A stretch of DNA of 64,000 nucleotides from a virus (IMGVR_UViG_3300037851_000542:1-64000), one strand, 5' to 3'. Positions 1 to 32,767 are shown, numbered from the stretch's first letter. Numbers and translations: made by a program. Notes: a model not told the origin generated them from the sequence alone.

Positions 1-227
1 TAAAGAACCAGTTTAAATTTAAAATATGACTTACCGGTGTGAATAATGAAGTGGTCAATGTCTGCATTTTCATATGCTTTTGAATTTTTTACCACATCTA
101 GATCAAAGACGGCACTTAATCCAGATTTAAAAATTACTAATATGTAATTATTGTTGTTACTTGCAGTATAATAATGAGAAGTTTCAATACCAGTATCTAA
201 CCTTTTTAGTAAATATTCGCAGCTCAT
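1..227 (-). CDS. small array protein, runs off the window start
   Basis: ATG at 227 overlaps the TGA of the 224..451 ORF (ATGA); open frame MSCEYLLK... to the window edge. Confidence 0.7.
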   Translation of the reverse strand, partial: MSCEYLLKRLDTGIETSHYYTASNNNNYILVIFKSGLSAVFDLDVVKNSKAYENADIDHFIIHTGKSYFKFKLVL

Positions 228-451
228 ATAAAATAAAAAATATCTTTATAATCCCTATGCTGCTTACAGATATTAAATCTTATAAACCTTTTATTCAATG
301 TATAGTAAGTCCTGTTCAATATAAACTCTTTTAAAGAAGTGTAGATCATAGGTTGTAAGTATATATCAACACTTATTGTTTGGTTGATACCTAGAGTTAA
401 AGGTTTTCCCATATTATTTTTATTAGCTATAGCTAAATAGGTATACTTCAC
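224..451 (-). CDS. small array protein with C-terminal tail
   Basis: MKYTYLAI...FYFI*. Confidence 0.8.
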   Translation of the reverse strand: MKYTYLAIANKNNMGKPLTLGINQTISVDIYLQPMIYTSLKEFILNRTYYTLNKRFIRFNICKQHRDYKDIFYFI

Positions 452-458
452 GGTTAAC

Positions 459-707
459 CTAAATTAAATATAATAAATCAGTCTTTAATCTTCCCATAGA
501 AATACCGTCTTTGCCAAATTTATCTGTTAAGGTAAAACCTTGAACATTATGATCTTGGAAGTGATATTCTTTTCTTTTTAAAAATTTAGTTAAGTCATGA
601 TAACGATAAACAGGAAAGTCCCAATACTTAACAAGTAAAAACATTTTGGCAGTAATTTCTACGGGATAGTATAATTCTGTGCCAAAATGATTTTTTGATA
701 ATATCAA
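459..707 (-). CDS. small array protein with C-terminal tail
   Basis: ends LLYLI*. Confidence 0.8.
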   Translation of the reverse strand: MILSKNHFGTELYYPVEITAKMFLLVKYWDFPVYRYHDLTKFLKRKEYHFQDHNVQGFTLTDKFGKDGISMGRLKTDLLYLI

Positions 708-738
708 ATAGTTTCCTTTCCTAGCAAATTTAGTTCTC

Positions 739-993
739 TTAAATTAAATAAAATAAATCCCTAATCTCTTTTCCGTGTCTATGTAAAATAATATTCTCAA
801 AACCAGAGTCAGTTAAATAGTCCGATTGGTATTTTATATACTCCTGTAATGAAATTATTATAGGGGCACAGTTTTTAATAAGTATTGAAACTTTTTGATT
901 TTCTGCTAAGTTATAAATAGCACAGTACGGATCAGTAAGGTTAGGATTATAATAATAACCATTAGGGTAAAAAGCTAAAAACTTATAAACCAT
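739..993 (-). CDS. small array protein with C-terminal tail
   Basis: MVYKFLAF...LFYLI*. Confidence 0.8.
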   Translation of the reverse strand: MVYKFLAFYPNGYYYNPNLTDPYCAIYNLAENQKVSILIKNCAPIIISLQEYIKYQSDYLTDSGFENIILHRHGKEIRDLFYLI

Positions 994-1002
994 TTGTAAG
1001 CT

Positions 1003-1242
1003 TTAAATTAAATAAAATATATCAGTGTAAAAGTCAAAGAAGTAAGGAGGAATATAAAAAGATTTAAAATATTGATTGCTTGTATAAAATTTTTTATTTT
1101 TAATAAAGGTTGGCACTTCTATAATTTTAATTGGATCGTCCACTAAATATATAGCAACTTTGGTATGACAAAGGTCTAGAACGCTATAATCAAAACTATC
1201 ATCTGCTTCGGGGTATTTAGAATTTAACAAAAGATACCTCAT
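1003..1242 (-). CDS. small array protein with C-terminal tail
   Basis: likely start MRYLLL at 1242 (track start overlaps the neighbour); ends IFYLI*. Confidence 0.8.
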   Translation of the reverse strand: MRYLLLNSKYPEADDSFDYSVLDLCHTKVAIYLVDDPIKIIEVPTFIKNKKFYTSNQYFKSFYIPPYFFDFYTDIFYLI

Positions 1243-1246
1243 AGTG

Positions 1247-1474
1247 CTACACGATATAGAAAATTCTCTGAAAAAACAAATATTTAGCATCAATAGTAGC
1301 ATACCTAAAGTCCTTATCTTTAGCAATTTCCGTCTGGTCTCTTATGAACTGAGATAAAGATATTGTTTTAGAACAGTTTTTATAGAAATCAACACTAACC
1401 CTTTGAATCGTGGGAAATTTAATTACCATCGGCGATTTATGATAGATGTCAAACACTAAATAGTCGTAATGCAT
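1247..1474 (-). CDS. small array protein with C-terminal tail
   Basis: MHYDYLVF...IFYIV*. Confidence 0.8.
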   Translation of the reverse strand: MHYDYLVFDIYHKSPMVIKFPTIQRVSVDFYKNCSKTISLSQFIRDQTEIAKDKDFRYATIDAKYLFFQRIFYIV

Positions 1475-1484
1475 AATTAAATAC

Positions 1485-1715
1485 TTATACTAAAATCAGT
1501 ATTACTTCAAACCAGTGCCCGCTTATTGTCGTACCCATTGAGTGAGAATTTTGTTTTCTTAATTGCATTGTATGTTTGTGTAGATTTTTCAAATTAGTTA
1601 TAATTTCGTGTCTTACATAACCTCCTTCGTTAAAAAAAGATATTTTAACTAAAGAGTCAGAAGGAAAAGCCGTTTGCCTCAGTTTGCCAGTTAAAGTGTT
1701 TACTAAGTATTTCAT
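1485..1715 (-). CDS. small array protein with C-terminal tail
   Basis: likely start MKYLV at 1715 (ATGA coupling); ends ILILV*. Confidence 0.8.
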   Translation of the reverse strand: MKYLVNTLTGKLRQTAFPSDSLVKISFFNEGGYVRHEIITNLKNLHKHTMQLRKQNSHSMGTTISGHWFEVILILV

Positions 1716-1954
1716 ATTAATCTCAACCATTTTTCAAAAGTAACACCTTCTTTTTCAATATAAAATTCAACAGCCCCTTTGGACTCTAATTTTGCTAAAT
1801 TAATATAAAGATGTTTCATATCGGTTACGATGCGGGAGGGTTTCGAATTCAGCCAGTTATCTTCAGTGCGATAGTATATATTTATTGAGGAATCTAAATC
1901 ATAGTCCATTATCATCATATACTTAACATACCAGGCTTTTACTAAGTATCTCAT
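1712..1954 (-). CDS. small array protein with C-terminal tail
   Basis: MRYLVK...WLRLI*, ATGA overlaps. Confidence 0.8.
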   Translation of the reverse strand: MRYLVKAWYVKYMMIMDYDLDSSINIYYRTEDNWLNSKPSRIVTDMKHLYINLAKLESKGAVEFYIEKEGVTFEKWLRLI

Positions 1955-2196
1955 ATCAGTATTAGCATAGTTGTGTACCAGTAACCATAGCCGCCAATCT
2001 GTATAACATCTGCTCCATCTATCTTTAATCTCATTAAATGTTTATGTAAGTTGTTCATATTGGTTTTAATTACGTCTTGTTTAAGATCGTCTTTATTACA
2101 AAAAATTATTCTAATTTCCGAGTAATCCGGAAAATTAGTTATTTTTAAACCAAAACCATCGAGAGAGTGTACCCTATGTGTTAAATATCCCCTCAT
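1951..2196 (-). CDS. small array protein with C-terminal tail
   Basis: MRGYLT...MLILI*; resembles 1485..1715. Confidence 0.8.
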   Translation of the reverse strand: MRGYLTHRVHSLDGFGLKITNFPDYSEIRIIFCNKDDLKQDVIKTNMNNLHKHLMRLKIDGADVIQIGGYGYWYTTMLILI

Positions 2197-2411
2197 ATAA
2201 AATAATAAATATTAGTATAAGCGTTCATAGTGTGCTTTAGGACATTTAAATCGCCAAAAGTGTTTTTAAACTCAGTAATTACTCTTTTTGGAGCCCCATC
2301 TCCTACTACATAATAATCTATTGTAACTCGATAAGGCTTGTATATAGAAAATCTAAACTCACAATCAATTACATCCCAGTTATTGTATACACTTTTTCTT
2401 AAATAATACAT
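2193..2411 (-). CDS. small array protein with C-terminal tail
   Basis: MYYLRK...IYYFI*. Confidence 0.8.
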   Translation of the reverse strand: MYYLRKSVYNNWDVIDCEFRFSIYKPYRVTIDYYVVGDGAPKRVITEFKNTFGDLNVLKHTMNAYTNIYYFI

Positions 2412-2412
2412 A

Positions 2413-2634
2413 TTAAACCAAGTAATAAATTGCTCTTACGTGCTTATCTTTTAGTAGTAAACTAATGTTTTTATTTTTGCCGCTCTTAAAAAGGTCTTTT
2501 ATGGTAAAAAATAATTCCCAACCAAAAACTTCCTCTAGATCACTTTCGTCTATTTTAGTATACATTATGATGTGAGCTTCATTTGGAAATTCAATATGTA
2601 TATTAATATGCGTGTAAGCTATGAAGTATTTCAT
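2413..2634 (-). CDS. small array protein with C-terminal tail
   Basis: MKYFIA...IYYLV*. Confidence 0.8.
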   Translation of the reverse strand: MKYFIAYTHINIHIEFPNEAHIIMYTKIDESDLEEVFGWELFFTIKDLFKSGKNKNISLLLKDKHVRAIYYLV

Positions 2635-2831
2635 ACTAGATAATAAATAGATTTTAAAGTTACAGTTCCGGTGTTATAATGGTCAGGTCCAAACATATCC
2701 ATAGCCATTCTGATTTCAGTAATATTCATTGGTTCAGGTAGATCTATTGTATCATACTTTATAGCTGGTTCAATCGGAAGGTCAAACACATCATTATTAT
2801 AAATATAAACTAAAAGATATTTTGTTCTCAT
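2631..2831 (-). CDS. small array protein with C-terminal tail
   Basis: likely start MRTKYLLV at 2831 (TAATG overlap); ends IYYLV*. Confidence 0.75.
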   Translation of the reverse strand: MRTKYLLVYIYNNDVFDLPIEPAIKYDTIDLPEPMNITEIRMAMDMFGPDHYNTGTVTLKSIYYLV

Positions 2832-3058
2832 TAGATTAGGTGATATATGTTTTCCAGTTGCTGAGCTTTGAATGTAAAACACATATCCTTAAATATAATT
2901 CTATGTTGATTTTTGAAATTTACACATTCTTTTGCAGATATAGGCATAGGAAGCTTACCGTACATGTGGCTAAAAAATACATCCCTACCGACGGCGGGAG
3001 AGAACAGAGGGTGCCCTTCTAGTTTCTGAAACCTTACTAAGTATATAGGCTTTTTCAT
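2831..3058 (-). CDS. small array protein with C-terminal tail
   Basis: likely start MKKPIYLV at 3058; ends IYHLI*. Confidence 0.75.
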   Translation of the reverse strand: MKKPIYLVRFQKLEGHPLFSPAVGRDVFFSHMYGKLPMPISAKECVNFKNQHRIIFKDMCFTFKAQQLENIYHLI

Positions 3059-3309
3059 ATTAAATACCAAAGTTTTCTGACATAGTGAGGAAACCAAACT
3101 ATCTTTTCTTTTTTTAAAAAAGTATTCAAGGCACCTATATTGTTAAAATTTAATGATACTGCATTTGAAGGAAGGTCTCCTTCAAAAATATCTATTAAAT
3201 CGTTGCTATCGTAACTTATATACTGTATTTTTATATTATTCTTTGCAAAATCTCCATTAAACATATCCTCACATAATGCAAGGTATTTATACTCAATATT
3301 AGTACTCAT
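3055..3309 (-). CDS. small array protein with C-terminal tail
   Basis: MSTNIEYKYLA...LWYLI*. Confidence 0.8.
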   Translation of the reverse strand: MSTNIEYKYLALCEDMFNGDFAKNNIKIQYISYDSNDLIDIFEGDLPSNAVSLNFNNIGALNTFLKKEKIVWFPHYVRKLWYLI

Positions 3310-3539
3310 ATTAAATGCCACAATTTTACTATTTGACGGTATTTATAGCACACGCAGCTCTTTTTTAAGATAGTATTTAAAGAGGTTATATCAGAGCTAG
3401 GCAAAGCATAACAAGCACAAATAAGCTTTATTTCCTCAGAGCTTACTCTACCTATAAAAGTCTCGCAACCAAGTGCAAGATACGTACTACTCAGGTAACT
3501 GTAATCATTATTACTATTAAATACCTTTTTTATTTTCAT
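3306..3539 (-). CDS. small array protein with C-terminal tail
   Basis: ends KLWHLI*. Confidence 0.75.
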   Translation of the reverse strand: MKIKKVFNSNNDYSYLSSTYLALGCETFIGRVSSEEIKLICACYALPSSDITSLNTILKKSCVCYKYRQIVKLWHLI

Positions 3540-3781
3540 ACCCAGTGCCAGAGTTTTAATGGTATTATAGCTCCTTTATTTGGGCATATTTTTCCATCAA
3601 TAGTTCCCTTTAAAAGAGCTTTTTTAATCCAGTATGCATAAAAGTTACTATTAGGAAACTCTATATCCCACACTAACTGTAAAATAACTTCTACTTCTTT
3701 CTCAGAAAAGAGACCTACATAAGGAGTGGCTGAATTGTCTTCTAAACCTTTACTGGAATTATATAGTAATAAGTATGTCAT
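3536..3781 (-). CDS. small array protein with C-terminal tail
   Basis: MTYLLL...KLWHWV*. Confidence 0.75.
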   Translation of the reverse strand: MTYLLLYNSSKGLEDNSATPYVGLFSEKEVEVILQLVWDIEFPNSNFYAYWIKKALLKGTIDGKICPNKGAIIPLKLWHWV

Positions 3782-4089
3782 TATATTAAATTTATCCTTT
3801 TTAAATCTGTGATTTTAATCCCTCCAAAACGCGCACGGGCATAACTTATTCCCATAGCCCAAGCTAGAGCGGGGTTAGTATCCCTTAGATACTCAAACTC
3901 GTGTTCTTTCGCATTATAATCGAATACACATTTATTGTTTAACTTTTTTTCAAAAACTGCTTTAATTGAAAGGGCATTCGACCTCCTTTTTTTAGGAGTA
4001 TAGTTAAGTTTTAATTCAGGGTGTACATAAATTAACACAGATTGTCCTGTTTCAACATTTAAGGCTATGATATTAGGTGTTGGTTTCAT
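3781..4089 (-). CDS. small array protein with C-terminal tail
   Basis: 102 aa; ends RINLI*. Confidence 0.75.
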   Translation of the reverse strand: MKPTPNIIALNVETGQSVLIYVHPELKLNYTPKKRRSNALSIKAVFEKKLNNKCVFDYNAKEHEFEYLRDTNPALAWAMGISYARARFGGIKITDLKRINLI

Positions 4090-4099
4090 TTTTAACTCT

Positions 4100-4327
4100 T
4101 TAGATTAAGATATTGATTGATTTTATTAATTCCTTCTGCCCTATCCACCATCCACCGTTATCTCTTATAATATATCTTAGCTTTTTAAATTTGTCATAGG
4201 TAAAACCGTTATAGGTAGAATCTCTGTAATATAAATAACTCTGATCTACAATCTTATATCGAATACCTAAAGCATATTTACTTTTTTTAGTGCAAACTAA
4301 ATACTTTTGATTACCTAATCTTTCCAC
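4100..4327 (-). CDS. small array protein with C-terminal tail
   Basis: KYLVC...SINILI*. Confidence 0.8.
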   Translation of the reverse strand: MERLGNQKYLVCTKKSKYALGIRYKIVDQSYLYYRDSTYNGFTYDKFKKLRYIIRDNGGWWIGQKELIKSINILI

Positions 4328-4341
4328 ACCCTGATCTGTTA

Positions 4342-4590
4342 TTAAATTAATATATGAATGGAAATTATAGATTCACCCAGTTGAAAACACCATTGCTCTT
4401 CGTGCTCTTCTAGAATATCTCTGATATGAATGAACTGCTCGTATGAATTACTGTGGTACAAATGGCAATTATCTAGCTCTTTCATAGTTTTAATCTTGTA
4501 TTCGGGGTTACCAGTAACAACACTAAAACAATTACTACTGATCTCTCTTTTGCCAGTAGTACGAATTAAATATTTAAAATTATGACTCAT
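4342..4590 (-). CDS. small array protein with C-terminal tail
   Basis: FKYLIR...SIHILI*. Confidence 0.8.
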   Translation of the reverse strand: MSHNFKYLIRTTGKREISSNCFSVVTGNPEYKIKTMKELDNCHLYHSNSYEQFIHIRDILEEHEEQWCFQLGESIISIHILI

Positions 4591-4593
4591 TTT

Positions 4594-4686
4594 TTATTCA
4601 GCCGTTAAATTAAAAACCCTAAAACTAGGATTAGCGCTATTATAATACCCACCATAAAACACTAGATATTTAACATTAACAGTCAT
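4594..4686 (-). pseudogene. probable truncated array member (30 aa)
   Basis: MTVNVKYLVF...AE*: family N-terminus but no tail. Confidence 0.4.
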
Positions 4687-4708
4687 TATTGTTTTCCGCT
4701 TGTCAACC

Positions 4709-4900
4709 TTAAATTAATATGTAAATAGCTTCTATAGACAACCAATTATGGAAACACCAAATAGTGCCATTTAATGACTTATCTAAACATATTTTGTAAT
4801 GTGCATATAAATCTATAGGATGTGCAATATCGTCCCACATCTCTAATAAACAGTGATGATTAGATCTTGCTTTACACACTAACCACTTACAGTCCCTCAT
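4709..4900 (-). CDS. small array protein with C-terminal tail
   Basis: KWLVC...AIYILI*. Confidence 0.75.
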   Translation of the reverse strand: MRDCKWLVCKARSNHHCLLEMWDDIAHPIDLYAHYKICLDKSLNGTIWCFHNWLSIEAIYILI

Positions 4901-4910
4901 TGCTATTCCC

Positions 4911-5141
4911 TTAAACTAGCATATATACATCTGCGACAGATGTACCGCATGGAAGTACTACATAAACCCCAGTTTTTTCTGTTATTTCTCGATCTTCTCT
5001 AATGTTCTTAATAAACTCTTTAACAGGCACTTCATATTCTCTTTCCAAATAGCTTAAATCTAAGATACGATGACTTCTAGTGTCTCCGCATAGCACTAAC
5101 CACTTACCGTTACTCATGTTTATCTGTTTACCACTACTCAT
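4911..5141 (-). CDS. small array protein with C-terminal tail
   Basis: KWLVLC...VYMLV*; sigma28-type promoter at 5187-5214 upstream. Confidence 0.75.
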   Translation of the reverse strand: MSSGKQINMSNGKWLVLCGDTRSHRILDLSYLEREYEVPVKEFIKNIREDREITEKTGVYVVLPCGTSVADVYMLV

Positions 5142-5283
5142 GTTTACCTGTTTGTTAAACTTTTAAATTTAAATCACTAAAAGTAGTATCGGTATTAAGT
5201 ATAAATAACTTTAACTATAAATGTACCATAGTGACTTTATTTCACGGAGGCTTTAAAATTTTTATAGGGTATACTAATAATCT

Positions 5284-5571
5284 TTAGATTAAATAAAGAA
5301 CATCTGTCCAGTAAAGGTTACACAGGTTAAAATCATCAAAGCTGAAACAAATAAAATTATCAGCTTGTAATTTGGATCGGTTATTAATAAAATAAGTTAA
5401 GTTACTTGACAAGTGAATAACTAAAGCGTCTTTAAAAGTACTGTGTGTTTTATAAAAGTTTACAGGTTCATTATTATCACAGCTTACAGATAAATAACCT
5501 CTATTTTCTTCTGAGTTAAACTTTTTACAGGGGCGCATTAAATAGCTGTATTTATTACCGTATTTATTCAT
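5284..5571 (-). CDS. small array protein with C-terminal tail
   Basis: YSYLMR...VLYLI*. Confidence 0.8.
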   Translation of the reverse strand: MNKYGNKYSYLMRPCKKFNSEENRGYLSVSCDNNEPVNFYKTHSTFKDALVIHLSSNLTYFINNRSKLQADNFICFSFDDFNLCNLYWTDVLYLI

Positions 5572-5579
5572 AAATAATC

Positions 5580-5858
5580 TTAGATTAAATAAAACACATC
5601 TTTATAGTGACCTAATGGTGGTTTATTACTAGTAGCATTATGTAGTCTAAAATGACTAACATGGTCACAATAAATATACTTAGCTTTGTTACTAATTAGC
5701 TCATTAATACTTATGACCTTAGTTGTATTTCTTCCTTGGGCGTCATCATTCTTATAATATCTTGGTATTCTTATCTTTTGCGATGAAGGGAGTAATTCTT
5801 TTACATAGAATGTTTTAATAGTAAAAGTAGTAATAAATAGGTAGTTATATTTAAGCAT
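5580..5858 (-). CDS. small array protein with C-terminal tail
   Basis: YNYLFI...YKDVFYLI*. Confidence 0.8.
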   Translation of the reverse strand: MLKYNYLFITTFTIKTFYVKELLPSSQKIRIPRYYKNDDAQGRNTTKVISINELISNKAKYIYCDHVSHFRLHNATSNKPPLGHYKDVFYLI

Positions 5859-5864
5859 ATTAAA

Positions 5865-6179
5865 TCATATCAGATAATATAATCTGTGGTAAGAATTTTC
5901 TGGTCCGCTGCCGCTAAATCTAAAATATTTAAAGGAATGGTGGTTATAATATTGAATTTTATTATTTAAAAACTCTTCGAAAGTTATTTCAAAATACTCA
6001 ACATAGGGGTAATTCTTTGTATAAATAAGAACAGTTTCTGGCGTTATTAAATCATCTTGATCAAACAAGTTATCTAATATTTTAAGCTTAGTGTACCAAC
6101 TGATATCCTTAAAAGGATCACTATCTTTTTTCCTATAAAATAATAAAAATCTTCCTTTATTGTAATCTATTTTTTTCAT
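5865..6179 (-). CDS. small array protein with C-terminal tail
   Basis: RFLLFY...LYYLI*. Confidence 0.8.
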   Translation of the reverse strand: MKKIDYNKGRFLLFYRKKDSDPFKDISWYTKLKILDNLFDQDDLITPETVLIYTKNYPYVEYFEITFEEFLNNKIQYYNHHSFKYFRFSGSGPENSYHRLYYLI

Positions 6180-6188
6180 AACTCTAAC

Positions 6189-6473
6189 CTAGATAAAGTA
6201 AAATATATTTTCATAGGTAGATAAAGGAGCAGTATGGGCACTATAGGTGCTTGGTTTTATTATAAAATACCTAAACATTGGTACATCTATCAAGCCGCTT
6301 TTATTTTTTAAAAAGTGGTCTATTTGAATTGGCTTCCTAAGGGTATCTATGGATGGAGAAGATGTATATACAATAATTTCTTCTTCGCCGGTTAAGTGTA
6401 GGATCTCTGGAATGTAAGTATTATAACCTGTGTACTCTACTCTAAATAATAAGTATTTACAACTAATAGGCAT
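6189..6473 (-). CDS. small array protein with C-terminal tail
   Basis: KYLLFR...YENIFYFI*. Confidence 0.8.
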   Translation of the reverse strand: MPISCKYLLFRVEYTGYNTYIPEILHLTGEEEIIVYTSSPSIDTLRKPIQIDHFLKNKSGLIDVPMFRYFIIKPSTYSAHTAPLSTYENIFYFI

Positions 6474-6475
6474 AG

Positions 6476-6745
6476 TTAGATAAAGTAAAAAGCATCTTTA
6501 TAATCTGGATCTACTCTGCTAAGGTGTGAGAAATTATTATATATAACTATGAAATATCTAAAGCCTGTATCTGAAGTAATACTATGTTTATTCCTAATAA
6601 ATTTATCTATACTCATTGCCTCAGGAGGTCTACCTCGTCTGTGGACATTAATCTTTTGTGCGCAATTTAGTTCTTTAGCTTTAATTTCTTGAATTCTATA
6701 AGGTCTTCTTATCAATAAGTATTTGCCCATTAAAGTATTATACAT
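6476..6745 (-). CDS. small array protein with C-terminal tail
   Basis: KYLLIR...DPDYKDAFYFI*; start 6745 or 6730. Confidence 0.8.
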   Translation of the reverse strand: MYNTLMGKYLLIRRPYRIQEIKAKELNCAQKINVHRRGRPPEAMSIDKFIRNKHSITSDTGFRYFIVIYNNFSHLSRVDPDYKDAFYFI

Positions 6746-6749
6746 TGTT

Positions 6750-7052
6750 TTAAATAAAATAAAAAGCATCTTTCCAGTACGGAGGATCTGTTTTGAAGTA
6801 AAGAATATGAGACGGATCTAAATCTGCCAGTGTGAAATATTGAAAGTTAAAATTAGGTAAAAGATTTTTTTTTCTAACAAACTCACTAAGCGTCACTGGT
6901 CTTAGAAAGTTTTGTTTATAAACTTTACCTTGTAAGTTTTTAGCATAAAAGTTTATCTTTTGGTCTAAAGGAAAAGAACTGTGAATAGGATCCCAACAGG
7001 GAAAGTCTTCACTCTTAAAGAATAATAAATAACTTTGAGTTTTATTTTCCAT
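6750..7052 (-). CDS. small array protein with C-terminal tail
   Basis: SYLLFF...DPPYWKDAFYFI*; close paralog of 6476. Confidence 0.8.
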   Translation of the reverse strand: MENKTQSYLLFFKSEDFPCWDPIHSSFPLDQKINFYAKNLQGKVYKQNFLRPVTLSEFVRKKNLLPNFNFQYFTLADLDPSHILYFKTDPPYWKDAFYFI

Positions 7053-7054
7053 TC

Positions 7055-7351
7055 TTATATAAAATAAAAAATAGTTTTAAATTTTAGTAATCCATACTCA
7101 TAGAAAAATTCACCTATACTCTTAGATCCAATATTTTTTGGGTCAGTCTCCCCTCCTTTTATATTTCTAAGTAGGTTTATATAACTCATACAATCTTTTA
7201 TTGGTTCTTTTTTTATAAAAACTCGTGGATCGTTTTTTGCCGCATAGAAATAAATATTTAAATCGTCTGATAAATCAACAGGCGTATATTCCCAGTAATT
7301 GCTATACCAACAATAATTTGTATATCTAAATATTAAATATTTATTATTCAT
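7055..7351 (-). CDS. small array protein with C-terminal tail
   Basis: KYLIFR...TIFYFI*. Confidence 0.8.
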   Translation of the reverse strand: MNNKYLIFRYTNYCWYSNYWEYTPVDLSDDLNIYFYAAKNDPRVFIKKEPIKDCMSYINLLRNIKGGETDPKNIGSKSIGEFFYEYGLLKFKTIFYFI

Positions 7352-7360
7352 CTGTAACTG

Positions 7361-7600
7361 TTAAATAAAATAATATAAATACTCATAGCAAAAGCGATCA
7401 CCATCTACCGAAAAAGCTTCTATTTTTAGGTCATTTGGTGGTTTTACGTTTTTAAAATGTTTTATATCTGATTTAATAGATTTCCAATCCCTGTTTAATA
7501 TTAATTCCCTTGGTTCAATATACCAAACTGTAATCTTAGTATTTTCATTTACTACAAATACCGCTTTAAAACTAACGGAGTCAACAGCTAACAATTTCAT
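7361..7600 (-). CDS. small array protein with C-terminal tail
   Basis: MKLLAV...YLYYFI*; paralog of 7605. Confidence 0.8.
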   Translation of the reverse strand: MKLLAVDSVSFKAVFVVNENTKITVWYIEPRELILNRDWKSIKSDIKHFKNVKPPNDLKIEAFSVDGDRFCYEYLYYFI

Positions 7601-7604
7601 ACAT

Positions 7605-7856
7605 TCAAATCAAGTAATAAAGCCCAGAAAAATGAGTTTCATCCTCTGGGACAATGTAAAAACAAGAAAAAGAATCAGCAAAATCTTTTTTTACTTTATT
7701 AAATCTTCTTAAATCTGAGATTACCCACTTGTGCTGAGGATTAGGATAGTCATTAAAACCAAAACCAGTAGAATACCAAACTTTTATTACTGTTTCTTGT
7801 GTAATTTTAACAGAGCAAAATGTTTTACCATCTCCCCTCCTTCCGAGTAATTTCAT
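7605..7856 (-). CDS. small array protein with C-terminal tail
   Basis: MKLLGR...GLYYLI*. Confidence 0.8.
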   Translation of the reverse strand: MKLLGRRGDGKTFCSVKITQETVIKVWYSTGFGFNDYPNPQHKWVISDLRRFNKVKKDFADSFSCFYIVPEDETHFSGLYYLI

Positions 7857-7860
7857 AATT

Positions 7861-8112
7861 TTAAATCAAATAATAGAGCTTATCAAGATTAGGGTTACCA
7901 CAGGATTGTATACTGTGAATCCAAGTTCTACACTTATTCCACTCATCACAGTTTTTTAAATCTATTACTGCTCCTTGTTTAAACGTATAGTAAATGTTGT
8001 GAATTCTTTTGCTATTATCCGTGTATGTAAAGTCTATTGCATTTCTATGTTTAATAAAATCAATTTTTATATCGGGTAGTAATTTATGTTGTTCTTTTGC
8101 TAAATACTGCAT
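7861..8112 (-). CDS. small array protein with C-terminal tail
   Basis: likely start MQYLAK at 8112; ends KLYYLI*. Confidence 0.8.
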   Translation of the reverse strand: MQYLAKEQHKLLPDIKIDFIKHRNAIDFTYTDNSKRIHNIYYTFKQGAVIDLKNCDEWNKCRTWIHSIQSCGNPNLDKLYYLI

Positions 8113-8116
8113 ACAC

Positions 8117-8368
8117 TTAAATAAAATAATAAAGCTTATGGTAAGCAATTACACTTTTATCTACACTCATTTCAAAATCGTCTTCTTGTGCAGATAGCCT
8201 ATTTAGAAACTTAAAAGCACCAGCTTTTTTTAGTGTGATAATATTGGAGACCCTGTGTTGGTCATCCAGATCCCAATATTTATAATAAATTGCTGTAGTT
8301 TTATTCAGGATGATAGCTCTAGGGTAGTCATTATTTTTTGCTAAATATTGCATTTTATTTTCACTCAT
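8117..8368 (-). CDS. small array protein with C-terminal tail
   Basis: MSENKMQYLAK...KLYYFI*; paralog of 7861. Confidence 0.8.
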   Translation of the reverse strand: MSENKMQYLAKNNDYPRAIILNKTTAIYYKYWDLDDQHRVSNIITLKKAGAFKFLNRLSAQEDDFEMSVDKSVIAYHKLYYFI

Positions 8369-8524
8369 ATCTAAGTGTCCCATAGTCAGTTAGATTAATG
8401 CTGCCCCGAATTTTTTTATACTAAACAATACCAGTCTATAATTGTATAAAAAGTGTTAGTGCTCTCTTCTAGAAATCTTACAACCACATTATCATCGGTA
8501 TAAAGTAAAAATAACTTTAGGTTT

Positions 8525-8830
8525 TTATACCCAGTATTTAGAAGTCCAATACACTATTTGTCTAAAACCCACACCACCTACTTCTAGTAAACCTAGTCTT
8601 AGACTTTGATCTTCAGACATTTCTTTGTTTATGTTATCAATACAAGATTCTAAATGTATTATGCTATTATACTGGTCCCAGCCCCAGCTTCTCTCTCTTA
8701 TTACTTTGAAAACCACAGTCCCATTAGTAAGGTCACTATAACTATATAGTAACCAGTGATCGCTTCCTTTAATTGTTTTACCTAGGTAATCGGTTTTAAA
8801 GCATTTAAATAAATATATTTTTTCACTCAT
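8525..8830 (-). CDS. small protein with tail-like end
   Basis: IYLFKC...SKYWV*; own sigma28-type promoter at 8867-8894. Confidence 0.75.
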   Translation of the reverse strand: MSEKIYLFKCFKTDYLGKTIKGSDHWLLYSYSDLTNGTVVFKVIRERSWGWDQYNSIIHLESCIDNINKEMSEDQSLRLGLLEVGGVGFRQIVYWTSKYWV

Positions 8831-9129
8831 AATATCCCTTTTAATTATATAACCTAATTAGATATGTATCGTCACTAATTAAAAATAACTTTAGTTAAAT
8901 AATTAGGAAGAGGACTAATCAAAGAGGATATGGGGAGATTTATAAGGATTGTCTCCTAGGTCAATTGGGGAATAGGGATTGCCGCCTAGGTTGATTCCAG
9001 TAATAAATACTGCCGCCTAGATAATGTCCCATAGTCATATAAGGTAATAACCCAGAATATAAAGTTCAGCCCCCAGTGATTGTTAAAAAATAACCGGATT
9101 CAATCCGGTTATAGGGGTGCTTTTAGGTA

Positions 9130-9540
9130 TTATCTAGTTATGGTTATGTTTACCAATTTAGGATCAATTCTGTGTAATTCTGTTAGGAATCTTAAAACTA
9201 CTCGGGAACAACGATCAATCTTTCCTGATCCGGTATTCCCTTCGATCATTCTCCAATTGTTACCTTGTGGTGTTCTACCGTTAGAATTAAGCATAAGGTT
9301 TAATAATTGAACTAGTACCATGTTTTGATTCAAAGCTATTGATACCATTGTTTCAATGGTTGATCTTGAATTATGGTATTTTCTATTATTGCTTAAAGAT
9401 TGGTGCTCATTATTTAAGTATCGGCAAGCTACCAAAGCATTTAATTGATCTACTGTCAACGATGATACTCTATAATCTTCATTAACTAAAGTGTATTTCC
9501 ATGTAGACTTACCATTATTGTAGTTTACTGAAGTTATCAT
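9130..9540 (-). CDS. hypothetical protein
   Basis: 136-aa ORF with AAGG upstream. Confidence 0.7.
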   Translation of the reverse strand: MITSVNYNNGKSTWKYTLVNEDYRVSSLTVDQLNALVACRYLNNEHQSLSNNRKYHNSRSTIETMVSIALNQNMVLVQLLNLMLNSNGRTPQGNNWRMIEGNTGSGKIDRCSRVVLRFLTELHRIDPKLVNITITR

Positions 9541-11502: not shown

Positions 11503-11590
11503 TTTAATTACTCCTATTTTTTGCCCATATAAGTATATCGGATGATATACTTATAAACTTTAGATTGAAATTACTACCTAGGAAATATTA

Positions 11591-28000: not shown

Positions 28001-28180
28001 AAAGAAGTTGATGGGATTTATGCTTTTTATAGTAAAAAAGGCACTATGGGACAAAGAAGGTATATAGATGAGTTAGAGAAGGGATATACAGATTATATGT
28101 TATATTCTTTTTATAATAAAACTAAGCTAAAGTTTCTTTTAGTTACTACCGATATAGATCATATATAAATCTTACTTTTA

Positions 28181-28366: not shown

Positions 28367-28458
28367 ATTTATGTCTTGCGCCCGAAAAAAATACTCAAGT
28401 TATATAGGGTTTGCGCCGATACCTTTATTGATTAGTTACTTATATAAAGTTATTGCTT

Positions 28459-28728
28459 ATGAGTGTAGATGATATTAAAGAGGCAGTATCTGATGATCAG
28501 TATATAAATTGGTTCTATGATGCTTGTGAAAAAGGAGATCTGGATCTAGCTAAAAATCTATACAATAAGGGTATGGACTTAGGTATAAATATTTACCTAT
28601 CTGAGGATGGAAGCACTATAATAAACTGCCTTAAGAATGGTCATTATGATGTAGTTAAGTATATAATTACTAAGGGCTCTTCAATATCTTCTTTAGACGT
28701 TTTAGATGAATTTCTCAGGATTATTTAA
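28459..28728 (+). CDS. short ankyrin-like protein with tail
   Basis: FYDACEKGDLDLAKNL...NGHYDVVKYII; ends FLRII*. Confidence 0.75.
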   Translation: MSVDDIKEAVSDDQYINWFYDACEKGDLDLAKNLYNKGMDLGINIYLSEDGSTIINCLKNGHYDVVKYIITKGSSISSLDVLDEFLRII

Positions 28729-28738
28729 TTATATACTT

Positions 28739-28999
28739 ATGGATTTATATTTTGATGATGATTCTCATGACCCCCGGCAGCTTTTCTATAATGCATGTCA
28801 ATCTGGAGATTTAGCGCTTGTTAAGAGGTTATTTGAAACAGGTAGAGTTGTTATAGCTTTAAAAGGAGAGTGTTCAGAGTGTTCATATTCACTAAGTATA
28901 GCTCTTAACCATAGGCAGTATGGTATTATTGGGTACTTAAATAGTATAGGAGTTGGGTGTTGTTTAGAGGATATAAGAAGATTTTATAGGATTATTTAA
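28739..28999 (+). CDS. short ankyrin-like protein with tail
   Basis: FYNACQSGDLALVKRL; ends FYRII*. Confidence 0.75.
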   Translation: MDLYFDDDSHDPRQLFYNACQSGDLALVKRLFETGRVVIALKGECSECSYSLSIALNHRQYGIIGYLNSIGVGCCLEDIRRFYRII

Positions 29000-29085
29000 A
29001 TAAGCGTTTCTATGTCTATTATAGTAATGTGTATAGGGTTTTGTATTGGTCTGTTTACATTTCTAGTCCAATTCCTTATCCTTAA

Positions 29086-29331
29086 GCACTGCCCCCGAAA
29101 AAAAAAGCTCGTGTAGTTCCCGTAGGGTCCTTACTTTGTGCCTGTGGTGAAAAAGAGGATTTAGATACAGTTAAGAGGTTAGTTGAGTCTGGGATCATAG
29201 ACAAGCCGTCTTTAGATGCGGGTTTAACAACTAGTAGTATTTGTAGAAACAGAGAAATATCCAAATATTTAATTACAAATGGCGCTACACCTGCTTGTTT
29301 AAAAGACCTAGAAGCTTTTTATATTATTTAA
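29086..29331 (+). pseudogene. ankyrin-like frame with no canonical start (not in the ORF track)
   Basis: open frame ...CACGEKEDLDTVKRLVESG...ISKYLITNGA...EAFYII*. Confidence 0.55.
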
Positions 29332-29339
29332 ATAAGATT

Positions 29340-29762
29340 ATGTTTAAAGACCAGCGTACTGCCGACAATTTATTTTACTTGGCGTGTGAACAAGGAGACC
29401 TAGAGGAGGTTAAAAAACTAATTATAAGAGAGCAGATTTATATACAAGACGTAGGAACTCAGGGTGTCATTTTAAGCTCTATAAAGGGAAATTTAAAAAT
29501 AATTAAGTTCTTAATTGAGGTAATGAATGTTAAAATAGCGTACCCGATTAGTAATTTAAGTGCCCTAAGTGAGGCAGCTAGAAATGGACATTTTGAGGTA
29601 GTAAAGTACTTGGTATCAAAAGGAGCTAGTGTCACAGAAAGAGACAGTGCCCCTTTTAGGTGGGCAATGGTAAAGAGACATTATCACATTGGAATGTATC
29701 TGTTTAACCAAGGATCAATACCTGACTCAGAACACTTAGCTAGACTTTTTAATTTTATTTAA
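29340..29762 (+). CDS. ankyrin-repeat protein with tail
   Basis: LACEQGDL, AARNGHFEVVKYLVSKGA; ends LFNFI*. Confidence 0.85.
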   Translation: MFKDQRTADNLFYLACEQGDLEEVKKLIIREQIYIQDVGTQGVILSSIKGNLKIIKFLIEVMNVKIAYPISNLSALSEAARNGHFEVVKYLVSKGASVTERDSAPFRWAMVKRHYHIGMYLFNQGSIPDSEHLARLFNFI

Positions 29763-30040
29763 ATAAAATACCAGAGTTTAGATGCATTATTTACGGGGCT
29801 TAATACTTGAGTATAATTCTCTTTTTCATCAAAGGGTGCTACTACTATGGCATAGTTAAATTTAAATTCTTTGATGTATATTCCTATTAAATGATCCATT
29901 GTGAAGACATTCCAGTGCCATAAATATGCATATTCTTTGCCCCATTTTAAATTTAAAATATGATCATTAGGTATAGATTTAACTTCTGAGTTCTCTAAAT
30001 GGGAGTATTTTTTTGGCAAACTAGGCTGAGTATGGGACAT
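29759..30040 (-). CDS. small protein with C-terminal tail
   Basis: ends KLWYFI*. Confidence 0.7.
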   Translation of the reverse strand: MSHTQPSLPKKYSHLENSEVKSIPNDHILNLKWGKEYAYLWHWNVFTMDHLIGIYIKEFKFNYAIVVAPFDEKENYTQVLSPVNNASKLWYFI

Positions 30041-30792
30041 AGGGTTTTTGGCTTAAAAGGTTTATAGTTAACAGTTTACTGTAAACTGTGCAATTTTAAA
30101 AAACCAGACTGTTTTTTTCTAAAGTTGTTAAAATTACCTGCCTAGAAGGGGTATCCTACTAGTCATTATAGCACATAAACAGGTCACTATGGGATACTTT
30201 TCATTAAAAAATACGGTTAAATTTTGAATTAAATTTGACTCATAATGGCGCATAAATCACTCATAATTAACGCACAACTTACCCATAATATAGGGCATAT
30301 TTAGGTCATTTTACCCCTATATTTAAGCCTAAACTTGAGCAAAAATAAGGTCATTTTGGAGGCAAATTTATAGGTAATTTTTGACCTAATTTTCATTAGT
30401 TTTTAGTGCTAATTTCGACAGTAATTTACCCTATTTTGAGCCTTAATTTAATACAGATTTAAGGGTATTTTACCTTTAGTTCAGACTTAAATTTAATCAA
30501 AAAGTTACTGCCTTGAAACCTAAATCAGAAGATCATTAGTCAATTTTTAGATTAAATTATTTTAAAATAATGTTAAAATACCTAAAAAATAAATTATTTA
30601 AAAATGATTAAAATTGGTAAAAAGAGCTAATATCCCATAGTAAAAGGGTATTTTATAGCTATTAAATTGGTATTATTTTATTTTTAAATAAAAAAGACTA
30701 AAGTTTTAGAGAAAAGCAGTCGATAGGTGATAGACTTAAGATTGATAATACTTTTAAGTAACTTTATAACAATTAATAAGGAATAAATAAAC

Positions 30793-31860: not shown

Positions 31861-31870
31861 AGTAACAGAT

Positions 31871-32767
31871 GTGATAAGAACTAAAGCGCAAAAATCATTA
31901 GAATTTAACCAAATATTAAATGCTTATGAGGAATTAGACTTTAAACTAGTTAAGTCTTTGGCAGCACAGGGAATCAGACCCAGAAAAGCTGATTTAATGC
32001 ATTGCTATTATCAATGTGCTTATTATGGTAGGTTAGATATGCTTAAGCATTTAATAGCTTACCATAACACTTCGAGTAAATCTTATATAAATTTTGCAGC
32101 TAATTCAGCTTTGTTTAGTGGGCAACTAAACATTATTAAATACCTAGATAAATTAGGGGCAGAATACAGTTGGGATGCCTTTAAGGACGCTTGTGAGAAT
32201 GGACATTTTGAAGTTATAAAGTATATAATAAATGGAGAATGTTATAGTACAGGAACTATAATTAAAGGTTTAAAAGGCTCTGTTTTAGGAAATCAATTAG
32301 AAATAACCAAGTTTCTGTTAAATATTCTTTTAAACTTGCCCCCAGAAAGCTTTTATTGTGACCCTTATGATGTTATTAGTGACTGTGCTCATACAAGCAT
32401 TGTCAGTCATAATGGGGATATTTTAAACTTATTGTGGAAAACTACATCTTTAAATCCGTCTACTGAGTTATTAGAGTCAGCAGTTAATTCAAGAAACCTA
32501 TATGCTTTAAAACTTCTAACAAAACATAAAGCGTGGTTAACTCCAGAGCTATTAATATTCAGTATTATGTTAGATATAGCTGAACCATACCCTAATAGCC
32601 CTATAACGGCGTATATTCTCAAAAATATAAATGTAAGTACTATTAAATTTGTGCACCTTACTCGTTTACTGAGAATTAAACAGCACCAACTAGTAAAAGA
32701 ACTTACCGTGAATAGAGGGTGTAAAGTTAATAAACGAATAATGAAAAGATTATATTATGTTATTTAA
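31871..32767 (+). CDS. degenerate ankyrin-repeat protein with tail
   Basis: AYYGRLDMLKHL, ALFSGQLNIIKYL, ACENGHFEVIKYI; ends LYYVI*. Confidence 0.8.
   Translation: MIRTKAQKSLEFNQILNAYEELDFKLVKSLAAQGIRPRKADLMHCYYQCAYYGRLDMLKHLIAYHNTSSKSYINFAANSALFSGQLNIIKYLDKLGAEYSWDAFKDACENGHFEVIKYIINGECYSTGTIIKGLKGSVLGNQLEITKFLLNILLNLPPESFYCDPYDVISDCAHTSIVSHNGDILNLLWKTTSLNPSTELLESAVNSRNLYALKLLTKHKAWLTPELLIFSIMLDIAEPYPNSPITAYILKNINVSTIKFVHLTRLLRIKQHQLVKELTVNRGCKVNKRIMKRLYYVI

What the first reader, a model, noticed from the sequence alone, without database searches (positions are those of the whole stretch)
1..8830. Tandem expansion of about 33 highly diverged 60-105 aa proteins, tightly translationally coupled
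Seen: an uninterrupted minus-strand run, mostly with 0-30 bp gaps and many ATGA/TAATG overlaps. Shared layout: N-terminal (K/R)Y/W-L-hydrophobic strand, a central K(I/V)xhY strand, an L..FI..K helix, and the terminal Y-L/F-I strand. Neighbours form closer sub-clades (5580-7052 with YKD.FY.I; 7361/7605; 7861/8117; 1485/1951; 4100-5141), which is the pattern of repeated local duplication and rapid divergence. One apparently broken copy lies at 4594-4686. Inference: an accordion-like paralog array, such as a repertoire of variable binding proteins against host defence or receptor targets.
Basis: partly seen in the sequence, partly recalled or inferred. Interest (0 to 1): 0.75.

Follow-up and report, generated by a model that had tools for sequence, protein, structure and literature searches.

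The report
Tandem small-protein gene array, jumbo phage
A 260-kb uncultured freshwater phage, probably of a Bdellovibrio-like predator, carries an unbroken row of 33 tiny genes; at least two thirds belong to one new protein family with a confidently predicted, unmatched fold, the row grows and shrinks by recombination at shared gene ends, and its function is unknown.

Summary
Window 3-8830 (minus strand) carries 33 ORFs of 63-104 aa and is 94% coding. Of 32 junctions, 27 overlap or are at most 12 nt apart.

One family or not: 16 members beat every decoy that kept their termini but shuffled their cores. About seven more have weaker support. Ten share only length, the N-terminal Y-L strand and the C-terminal h-Y-[LF]-I end.

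AlphaFold2 with the paralogs as alignment gives pLDDT 93.6 (four strands, helix, two strands). The conserved termini are modelled as strands. Six structure libraries give no significant match. Pfam, PHROGs and 1.84 billion representative proteins give only one outside relative.

Accordion behaviour is supported. 23 of 33 genes have their closest paralog within two genes. A related 2-kb contig lacks three whole genes and holds an extra truncated copy. The only DNA repeats sit at gene ends. Orthologs show dN/dS 0.15-0.27, so selection is purifying, not positive.

Three promoters matching the Bdellovibrio attack-phase FliA consensus (TAAAG-N16-CCGAT) drive the row.

Function is inferred only: early host-takeover or anti-defence binders. 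The same C-terminal ending on ankyrin and other proteins (noted before in this scan) leaves a shared-handle reading open.

The parts
3..8830 (-). The whole array: 33 small ORFs. The last one (3-227) is completed at the other end of the circular contig as a 78-aa protein ending LYLI.
8868..8893 (-). Sigma-28/FliA-type promoter (TAAAG-N16-GACGAT), 38 nt before the first gene (8525-8830).
   Evidence: consensus compared with PMC3627812
8494..8519 (-). Sigma-28/FliA-type promoter heading an 11-gene unit (8117-8368 down to 5284-5571).
5188..5213 (-). Sigma-28/FliA-type promoter in the 142-nt gap, heading a 21-gene unit (4911-5141 down to the gene at 3-227).
9090..9112 (-). Intrinsic-terminator-like hairpin (10 pairs, then T run) that closes the upstream gene 9130-9540 before the array begins.
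5284..8383 (-). Upstream block of family A members (5284, 5580, 5865, 6189, 6476, 6750, 7055, 7361, 7605, 7861, 8117). Typical endings are Y-K-D-x-F-Y-[LF]-I, with a helix motif [IV]-S-h-x-E-F-[IL]-x-N-K.
3..1474 (-). Downstream block of family A members (3, 224, 739, 1003, 1247), plus 459-707, whose support is mixed.
1247..1474 (-). The modelled member (75 aa). AlphaFold2 gives pLDDT 93.6 and pTM 0.79, with strands at 2-9, 16-21, 25-30, 36-39, a helix at 40-52, and strands at 56-61 and 66-73.
1485..2196 (-). Trio 1485/1712/1951. 1485 and 1951 are clearly paralogous (E 5.6e-12). All three score above or near the decoys against the family profile. Endings are L-I-L-[IV] or L-R-L-I.
2193..4900 (-). 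Ten genes whose core relation to family A is weak or not shown: 2193, 2413, 2631; 2831, 3055, 3306, 3536 (endings K-L-W-[YH]-L-I); 3781; 4100, 4342, 4709 (endings I-x-I-L-I). Similar pairs exist inside each group.
4911..5141 (-). Family A member directly behind the promoter. It is absent from the related contig. A 24-nt tandem duplication spans its start (5104-5151), so 5117 is an alternative start.
4594..4686 (-). Broken copy: a 30-codon remnant with the N-terminal K-Y-L-V-F motif and no C-terminal ending.
5284..5312 (-). Gene-end repeat (C-terminal codons plus stop). It is 83% identical to the end of the preceding gene at 5580-5608, and the match runs on into the spacer after the stop. These two copies flank exactly the gene that the related contig lacks.

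Best explanation
The stretch is a lineage-specific multigene array in the accessory (early-type) arm of a circular 260-kb jumbo-phage genome.

Shown:
- At least 16, and probably about 23, of the 33 genes encode one new family of roughly 75-100-aa alpha/beta domains (four strands, one helix, two strands).
- The conserved N-terminal Y-L-h and C-terminal h-[FY]-Y-[LF]-I segments are modelled as beta-strands of the domain.
- Closest paralogs sit next to each other, and a related phage differs by whole-gene gains and losses.
- The only DNA-level repeats are the 20-36-nt gene ends. They therefore serve as the homology for unequal recombination, which is the accordion.
- Orthologs are under purifying selection, so these are working proteins.
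- The row is split into three units (1, 11 and 21 genes) by promoters of the form TAAAG-N16-CCGAT.
- Genes within a unit overlap or lie 1-12 nt apart and mostly lack a Shine-Dalgarno-like sequence.

Inferred:
- The host is a Bdellovibrionota bacterium whose sigma-28 (FliA) polymerase reads these promoters in swimming attack-phase cells. The array would then be made at once on infection and translated by termination-reinitiation coupling.
- The products act as a repertoire of small binders that share a scaffold and differ on their surfaces, aimed at host proteins (takeover or anti-defence).
- The ten members without detectable core similarity are most likely older, further diverged copies. This is not shown.
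For: Array anatomy.

Family membership:
- With termini removed, core-only BLAST gives 10 pairs of at least 22 bits, against 0.3 in shuffles.
- In a leave-one-out HMM test against 100 decoys that keep the termini, 16 array members (plus 2 genes at 257 kb) score z of 3.5 or more with no decoy reaching them. Six more have 1-5 decoys reaching them.
- 5284 is recovered by profiles that did not contain it, at E 7e-5 and 2.6e-4.
- AlphaFold2 on 36 paralogs gives pLDDT 93.6 (all five models 92-94). The ESM Atlas single-sequence model of another member (6189-6473) has pLDDT 0.37. This suggests, but does not prove, that the paralog alignment carries the fold signal.

Novelty of the family:
- No Pfam or PHROGs hit for 10 members.
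- A profile search of 1.84 billion representatives gave 11 self hits and one outside protein.
- No structural match: Foldseek E above 0.2 in PDB, AFDB and BFVD; best VIA Z 4.5.

Accordion behaviour:
- 23 of 33 best partners lie within two genes, p < 2e-4.
- Related contig L021 has orthologs of 6750, 6476, 6189, 5580, 4709 and 4342 (52-72% identity for the five measured). It lacks 5865, 5284 and 4911 as whole units and has an extra truncated 4342-like copy.
- Gene-end repeats flank the 5284 unit.
- dN/dS is 0.15-0.27.

Protein-level selection on the ending: the last codon is ATT 10, ATA 9, ATC 6, GTN 7, and Tyr is TAT 16, TAC 5.

Promoters and host:
- 25 promoter matches in the window against 0.46 expected, three of them in the array.
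- The Bdellovibrio attack-phase consensus is TTAAG-N16-CCGATA (PMC3627812).
- The phage RF1 is 89% identical to that of a Lake Mendota Bdellovibrionota MAG. The phage copy has 46% GC against a genome mean of 33%.
Against: - Ten of 33 members show no core similarity to the family profile.
- The one independent fold prediction for such a member (4342-4590, alignment without family A) reached only pLDDT 55.8.
- An iterative HMM from a tight nine-member seed stops at 12 members at E below 1e-3. The wider membership therefore rests on decoy statistics and not on E-values.
- The confident model may be driven by the family A rows alone.
- The same C-terminal ending sits on ankyrin-repeat and other larger proteins. 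In those proteins it cannot be the last strand of this small domain.
- No expression, timing, binding or phenotype data exist.
- Host assignment rests on one captured gene and a promoter consensus.
- dS is near saturation, so the dN/dS values are rough.
Confidence: 0.6

Rival explanations
1. The genes are a row of unrelated small genes that share only a portable address or handle. In this reading the C-terminal h-Y-[LF]-I-COOH ending, often with an N-terminal Y-L strand, is read by one common partner such as a protease, a sorting machine or an assembly hub. The array is then a collection of tagged cargo or adaptor proteins, not a paralog family.
For: - The ending occurs on about 60 genes confined to 240 kb through 0 to 65 kb of the circular map. 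These include ankyrin-repeat proteins and proteins of 110-250 aa.
- Ten array members share nothing detectable with family A beyond the termini.
- Synonymous codon variation shows the ending is selected as protein.
- An earlier follow-up in this scan reached the same view of the ending (e1-5404331).
Against: - About two thirds of the array share core similarity beyond the termini.
- The paralog alignment yields one confident fold in which the ending is a strand in a block of mean pLDDT about 90, not a free tail.
- Nearest neighbours are nearest relatives.
- No receptor for the ending has been identified.
Confidence: 0.2
2. The conserved gene ends are nucleotide-level signals and not protein features. 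In this reading the AT-rich last codons act as the initiation or re-initiation region of the next gene, or as recombination sites, and the apparent protein motif is a by-product.
For: - The last four codons lie where a Shine-Dalgarno sequence would be for the next gene in 27 of 32 junctions. Only 19% of array genes have a Shine-Dalgarno-like sequence.
- Outside the array, genes with the ending are more often followed by a gene within 15 nt (17 of 33 against 39 of 131, p 0.024).
- Gene ends are the only DNA repeats in the array.
Against: - Third codon positions vary freely (Ile ATT/ATA/ATC, Val GTN, Leu TTA/TTG/CTG/CTA, Tyr TAT/TAC). Replacements are chemically conservative, not nucleotide-conservative.
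- The ending persists at the unit ends, before gaps of 118 and 142 nt in the window and about 195 nt after the last gene, where no gene follows closely.
- The N-terminal Y-L motif sits 2 to 15 residues from the start codon.
Confidence: 0.07
3. The products are packaged internal or ejected virion proteins. In this reading the N-terminal M-K-Y-L segment is a capsid-targeting leader like that of T4 internal proteins, as proposed elsewhere in this scan for other tagged arrays.
For: - The N-terminal M-[KR]-Y-L superficially resembles the start of the T4 capsid-targeting sequence (from memory of M-K-T-Y-Q-E-F-I-A-E; not tested).
- Earlier scan notes on other jumbo phages read leader-tagged arrays this way.
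Against: - The N-terminal segment is modelled as strand 2-9 of the domain with pLDDT about 93.
- No conserved Glu or other cleavage position follows it.
- The genes sit behind sigma-28-type promoters among small accessory genes, 70 kb or more from the large (presumably structural) genes at 100-200 kb.
Confidence: 0.04

Closest known systems
Tandem multigene families and 'gene accordions' of large DNA viruses (poxvirus K3L amplification; African swine fever virus MGF110/360/505; giant-virus ankyrin and other expansions). From general knowledge, not checked here.
   Same: Head-to-tail paralogs in a variable arm of the genome. Copy number changes by recombination between copies. Neighbours are the closest relatives. 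The presumed role is in host interaction.
   Different: This is a bacteriophage and the units are far smaller (about 250 bp). The homology for recombination is only 20-36 nt at the gene ends. No recent identical copies are present, so no ongoing amplification is seen. Measured selection on orthologs is purifying.
Early host-takeover gene clusters of large phages (SPO1 genes 37-60 in the terminal redundancy; T4 and T5 early small ORFs; terminal-repeat genes of Staphylococcus phage K). From general knowledge.
   Same: Dozens of densely packed small genes read by the host polymerase from strong early promoters. Most have no database relatives.
   Different: Those clusters are made of mostly unrelated genes. 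Here most members are paralogs with one predicted fold and shared termini, and the promoters are sigma-28-type, not sigma-70-type.
Anti-CRISPR and other anti-defence loci of phages
   Same: Rows of small, fast-turning-over genes without known domains, variable between close relatives.
   Different: Those loci hold unrelated proteins and usually a marker regulator (aca). No such marker is present, and no similarity to any known anti-defence protein was found.
Non-polar C-terminal degrons of bacterial AAA+ proteases (the ssrA tag ending L-A-A; tail-specific degradation of proteins with non-polar C-termini). From general knowledge, and as the closest match named by an earlier follow-up (e1-5404331).
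   Same: The last four or five residues are hydrophobic, are selected at the protein level and are shared by unrelated proteins.
   Different: In family A the ending is predicted to be a structured strand and not an exposed tail. The residues are bulky aromatic/aliphatic, not small. No degradation data exist.
Hint/intein fold (Prp8 intein 6owu/6mx6; split NrdJ-1 and DnaE inteins)
   Same: It is the top structural neighbour in two searches that are not independent, since one only re-aligns Foldseek's own hits. Z is 4.4-4.5 with 66 of 75 residues aligned at rmsd 3.5-3.6. Hint-type entries also appear weakly in AFDB and the Atlas (TM 0.55). N- and C-terminal strands are both conserved.
   Different: Z is below the usual background for this tool (7-8). 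There is no N-terminal Cys/Ser nucleophile and no C-terminal His-Asn. The domain is half the size of a mini-intein.

Membership tests
   Met for 16 members (z of 3.5 or more, 0 of 100 termini-preserving decoys) and weakly for about 7 more. Not detectable for 10.
   The family A member 1247-1474 gives pLDDT 93.6. The non-A member 4342-4590, with an alignment free of family A, gives pLDDT 55.8. Its secondary-structure order is compatible (strand ... strand, strand, helix ... strand) but the model is unreliable. Only two fold jobs were allowed.
Viral gene accordion / tandem multigene family | Tandem head-to-tail paralogs whose nearest relatives are neighbours. | tested here: met
   23 of 33 best partners lie within two genes; 0 of 5000 permutations reached this.
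Viral gene accordion / tandem multigene family | Copy-number difference between related genomes, at unit boundaries. | tested here: met
   One related contig (L021/L022) lacks 5865, 5284 and 4911 as whole genes and has an extra truncated 4342-like copy. Repeats at gene ends flank the 5284 unit. Only one relative of 2 kb was available.
Viral gene accordion / tandem multigene family | Adaptive amplification or positive selection. | tested here: not met
   dN/dS is 0.15-0.27 in five ortholog pairs, with dS about 1 or saturated. No near-identical recent copies exist; the best paralog pair is 34% identical.
Hint/intein superfamily | Significant structural match to the Hint fold. | tested here: inconclusive
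   Best Z is 4.5 (rmsd 3.5, 66 aligned) and TM is 0.55 to Hint-type entries. All are below significance.
Hint/intein superfamily | N-terminal Cys/Ser nucleophile and C-terminal His-Asn. | tested here: not met
   N-termini read M-x-Y-L-h and C-termini h-Y-[LF]-I. No conserved Cys, Ser, His or Asn occurs at the ends.
T4-type capsid-targeting-sequence proteins | Short N-terminal leader ending at a conserved protease site, separate from the folded body. | tested here: not met
   The N-terminal motif is modelled as strand 2-9 of the domain. It lies at a variable distance from Met1 and no conserved Glu follows it.
C-terminal degron or handle shared by unrelated proteins | The same ending on proteins of different folds, selected at the protein level. 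| tested here: met
   About 60 genes carry it, including ankyrin proteins. Synonymous codons vary.
C-terminal degron or handle shared by unrelated proteins | Exposed, unstructured tail. | tested here: not met
   For family A, residues 66-73 of 75 are a strand, and the 10-residue blocks covering 61-75 have mean pLDDT 89 and 92. Not tested for the larger proteins.
C-terminal degron or handle shared by unrelated proteins | A dedicated receptor or protease acts on it. | not testable with these tools
   No candidate partner was identified, and the complex-prediction machine was unreachable.
Any Pfam or PHROGs family | Profile match at or near the curated threshold. | tested here: not met
   Ten members spanning all sub-groups have no hit better than E 0.006, and all are far below cut-offs.

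The most novel reading that the evidence does not exclude
The conserved N- and C-terminal strands may be a portable two-piece handle and not merely the core of one fold. About 60 early proteins of different folds (the 33 here, mini-proteins of 46-53 aa, ankyrin-repeat proteins) would use it to dock onto one common partner or onto each other, for example by strand pairing between paralogs made in equal amounts from coupled genes. The array would then be a combinatorial library of tagged effectors or adaptors that a Bdellovibrionota phage deploys on entering an attack-phase cell. This would be an undescribed phage protein-addressing or assembly system.
Probability: 0.2. Interest if true: 0.85.

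Novelty: new variant of a known kind. Interest (0 to 1): 0.62.

Why it matters
- Size. A row of 33 is very large for a phage paralog array.
- Novelty of the family. It has no relatives outside its own lineage among 1.84 billion representative proteins. Its confidently predicted fold matches nothing in six structure libraries.
- Mechanism in view. Short conserved gene ends act both as core strands of the protein and as the homology for gene gain and loss. The array is therefore a clean natural example of accordion evolution at the scale of 250-bp units.
- Host and timing. If the host assignment holds, this is part of the start-up programme of a jumbo phage of predatory Bdellovibrionota, read from the host's attack-phase sigma-28 promoters. 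I know of no described jumbo phage for that host group.
- Route to the shared ending. The array gives a ready set of small, foldable proteins for asking what the shared hydrophobic ending does.

Tried and rejected
Database and relative searches that found nothing
- DNA similarity to 50,697 phage records: none.
- Word-indexed protein searches with 6476, 4342 and the whole alignment returned only the query itself.
- Searches for related loci all failed to find kin: the array pair alignment in viral and metagenome contigs, and the upstream gene, the helicase and uS2 in viral contigs.
- The neighbouring methylase found 18 unrelated phages without the array. I used these as negative controls.
- tblastn of the helicase against phages gave at most 27% identity, so no cultured relative exists.
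- Five Bdellovibrionota MAGs hold no family member. This says little, because no positive control genome was included.
- The ESM Atlas had no usable neighbour.

Structure
- No library gave a significant match. This is not proof of a new fold for a 75-residue model.
- hhalign of sub-groups C, D and E against family A aligned only the termini.
- My column-shuffle control for group D was flawed, because the fixed block missed its N-terminal motif. I do not use that result.

Readings rejected
- Recoded stop codons or one giant repeat protein: the ORFs use three frames and three stop codons.
- tRNA or other RNA genes in the window: none found.
- Sigma-70-type promoters are not enriched (59 found against 66 expected).

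Tools not available
- Complex prediction (two copies of the modelled member, to test dimerisation through the hydrophobic strands) was unreachable in eight tries (and one more). There is no result.

Literature
- Searches for phage gene accordions or tandem small-protein families gave nothing pertinent.

Full report
WHAT IS THERE

The window is the first 64 kb of a single 259,994-bp contig with 33% GC. The contig is circular. Its first 163 bases repeat at its end, and a 119.5-kb JGI metagenome contig that is 100% identical over 16.7 kb runs straight across the junction.

From 8830 down to 3 on the minus strand lie 33 ORFs. I moved eight starts to the ATG that sits at the previous gene's stop. 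After that the ORFs are 63-104 aa and cover 94% of the stretch.

The 32 junctions break down as follows:
- 8 ATGA overlaps
- 2 TAATG overlaps
- 17 gaps of 1-12 nt
- 2 gaps of 14-31 nt
- 3 gaps of 118-156 nt

The ORFs use all three frames and all three stop codons, so this is neither one gene nor a recoding artefact. The gene cut at base 3 is completed at the other contig end as a 78-aa protein ending LYLI.

TRANSCRIPTION UNITS

A clean terminator hairpin (9112-9090) closes the gene upstream of the array. Three sites of the form TAAAGTT-N15-CGAT lie on the minus strand at 8893-8868, 8519-8494 and 5213-5188. The window holds 25 such sites against 0.46 expected by chance. The next site follows the last array gene.

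The row is thus cut into units of 1, 11 and 21 genes. No convincing terminators lie inside them.

Read as TAAAG-N16-CCGAT(A), the sites match in sequence and spacing the TTAAG-N16-CCGATA consensus of 92 of 140 attack-phase promoters of Bdellovibrio bacteriovorus. In that organism FliA (sigma-28) acts as a global regulator (PMC3627812).

The phage's release factor 1 (42822-43907) is 89% identical to that of a Lake Mendota Bdellovibrionota MAG. The bacterial copy and its flanks have 45-51% GC. The next relatives, at about 56-63%, are mostly also Bdellovibrionota. The phage copy has 46% GC in a 33% genome.

I infer a Bdellovibrionota host and immediate expression of the array by host sigma-28 polymerase in swimming cells. 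An earlier follow-up left open whether a phage sigma factor reads these promoters (e1-5404330), and I did not test that.

ONE FAMILY OR NOT

The shared termini are striking. Twenty-seven of the 32 complete ORFs end in a strict hydrophobic/aromatic tetrapeptide, typically F/Y-Y-L/F-I. Most begin with M-x(0-14)-[YW]-L-h. I therefore tested whether anything beyond the termini is shared.

- Core-only BLAST. With the termini cut off, all-against-all BLAST of the cores gives 10 pairs of at least 22 bits, against 0.3 in shuffles.
- Leave-one-out profile test. Each protein was scored against a profile of the others. It was compared with 100 decoys that kept its own termini and had a shuffled core. Sixteen array members and two genes at 257 kb have z of 3.5 or more with no decoy reaching them. 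Six more (1712, 1951, 2631, 4342, 7861, 8525) have 1-5 decoys reaching them.
- Recovery by independent profiles. 5284 is recovered by profiles that did not include it.
- Unsupported members. Ten are not distinguishable from their decoys: 459, 2193, 2413, 2831, 3055, 3306, 3536, 3781, 4100 and 4709. Profile-profile comparison of their sub-groups with family A aligns only the termini. Some are linked by pairwise similarity to supported members or to each other: 4100-4342, 2413-2631 and 3055-3306.
- Strict iteration. A search from a nine-member seed stops at 12 members. The outer membership is therefore statistical and not clear-cut.

FOLD

AlphaFold2 was run on the 75-aa product of 1247-1474 with 36 paralogs as the only alignment. 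It gives pLDDT 93.6 and pTM 0.79, and all five models lie at 92-94. The elements are strands at 2-9, 16-21, 25-30 and 36-39, a helix at 40-52, and strands at 56-61 and 66-73.

The ESM Atlas single-sequence model of a different family member (6189-6473) has pLDDT 0.37. The comparison is across two proteins and two methods. It suggests, without proving, that the paralog alignment carries real shared information.

The conserved N-terminal motif is strand 1 and the conserved ending is strand 6. The family's best-conserved internal motif, [IV]-S-h-x-E-F-[IL]-x-N-K, spans strand 4 and the start of the helix. I could not read coordinates, so I have not shown that strands 1 and 6 pair.

No library gives a significant match. 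Foldseek E is above 0.2 in PDB, AFDB clusters, Swiss-Prot models and BFVD. The best VIA Z is 4.5, to a Prp8 intein, which is below this aligner's usual background. Atlas TM is at most 0.57. Hint-type entries recur weakly, but the catalytic end residues are absent.

A second model, of 4342-4590 with an alignment that excludes family A, reached only pLDDT 55.8. Its order of elements is compatible, but the model decides nothing.

EVOLUTION

Twenty-three of 33 genes have their best partner within two genes, and none of 5000 permutations reached this.

The profile search of 1.84 billion representative proteins returned 11 of the phage's own genes and one outsider. That outsider sits on two identical 2-kb lake-metagenome contigs.

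On that contig, orthologs of 6750, 6476, 6189, 5580 and 4342 are 52-72% identical. An ortholog of 4709 is also present, recognised at 72% DNA identity and from its start sequence. Genes 5865, 5284 and 4911 are missing as exact units. An extra truncated 4342-like copy sits where this phage has its 30-codon remnant.

The end of 5580 and the end of 5284 share about 28 nt, including the spacer after the stop. These two copies bracket exactly the unit that the relative lacks. Apart from the three promoter sites and one chance-level pair, all direct repeats of 20 nt or more in the array sit at gene ends or starts.

So the conserved termini double as recombination homology. Ortholog dN/dS is 0.15-0.27 with dS around 1 or saturated. 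These are constrained proteins, and there is no sign of positive selection at this depth.

THE ENDING BEYOND THE ARRAY

A slightly looser version of the ending fits 61 of 383 crude genes. All but one lie between 240 kb and 65 kb across the contig junction, and none of the roughly 180 genes between 70 and 230 kb carry it.

Carriers include three more array-like clusters, mini-proteins of 46-53 aa at 253.9-255.1 kb, and ankyrin-repeat and other proteins of 110-250 aa.

Third codon positions vary freely, so selection acts on the protein. The ending persists where no gene follows closely. This agrees with two notes of this scan (e1-5404381, e1-5404331). It keeps open the reading that the ending is also a handle for a common partner.

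In family A, however, the ending is modelled as a structured strand. For these proteins a purely structural reason is the simpler explanation.

VERDICT

It overreaches in extent, because about two thirds of the members, not all 33, are demonstrably one family. It also overreaches on selection.

Function remains inference. I favour early, sigma-28-driven host-interaction proteins built on one small scaffold. I give this package 0.6, with most of the uncertainty on function and on the ten outliers.

Dimerisation and expression are therefore untested.

Noticed in passing
window 42822-43907; loci L023-L030: The phage release factor 1 is 89% identical to that of a Lake Mendota Bdellovibrionota MAG. 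The bacterial copy and its flanks have 45-51% GC. The next-best hits (56-63%) are mostly also Bdellovibrionota. The phage copy has 46% GC in a 33% genome. This points to a recent capture from, and so a host among, Bdellovibrionota.
   Followed up: partly
window, 25 sites (for example 5188-5213, 8494-8519, 8868-8893, 11537-11562, 28128-28153): The phage's sigma-28-type promoters read TAAAG-N16-CCGAT. That is the same sequence and spacing as the FliA consensus of Bdellovibrio attack-phase promoters (TTAAG-N16-CCGATA, PMC3627812). This favours the host sigma factor as their reader and ties phage start-up to the swimming attack phase.
   Followed up: partly
window 5222-5231, 8376-8385, 9025-9034, 28044-28053 and others; L021 about 1078-1088: A second motif, CTATGGGACA, occurs 12 times (one mismatch allowed) against 2.5 expected. 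It often lies next to the sigma-28-type promoters and is conserved next to the promoter on the related contig. It may be a regulator or processing site.
   Followed up: no
window 8941-9020: Three direct repeats of about 19 nt (core CTAGGCGGCA on the minus strand), spaced 30-31 nt apart, lie between the upstream terminator and the first array promoter. This looks like an operator or factor-binding array.
   Followed up: no
window 5104-5151: A 24-nt tandem duplication includes the start codon of the gene at 4911-5141. It creates two in-frame starts (5141 and 5117). The second start gives the usual short N-terminus (M-S-N-G-K-W-L-V).
   Followed up: no
genome 253,700-255,514 (L002 13700-15514): A second tight row of mini-proteins of 46-79 aa begins M-Y-[LI]-L and ends Y-Y-F-I or W-W-Y-F-I. 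These may be minimal versions of the same two-strand clasp. Three 48-aa copies are adjacent.
   Followed up: no
window 28453-32767, 34755-35087; genome 250,490-251,146: Several ankyrin-repeat proteins end in the same kind of hydrophobic tetrapeptide (for example L-R-I-I, Y-R-I-I, F-N-F-I, Y-Y-V-I, F-H-F-I, F-I-V-I). The ending is therefore not confined to the small-domain family.
   Followed up: partly
window 38824-40449: A TnpB/Cas12f-like (OrfB_IS605) transposon protein lies in a local GC-rich island (37-39% against about 30%). It is an incidental mobile element in the early arm.
   Followed up: no
genome 259,322-259,624 and 258,335-259,063 (L002 19322-19624, 18335-19063): Directly after the array come a GIY-YIG-like 100-aa ORF and an N6/N4 DNA methyltransferase. 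The methyltransferase has 55-69% identical copies in many unrelated phage contigs and looks like a mobile cassette.
   Followed up: partly
contig ends (window 1-163 = genome 259,832-259,994): A 163-bp terminal overlap, together with a 100% identical 119.5-kb contig from JGI sample 3300037310 that spans the junction, shows the record is a circular or circularly permuted assembly.
   Followed up: yes
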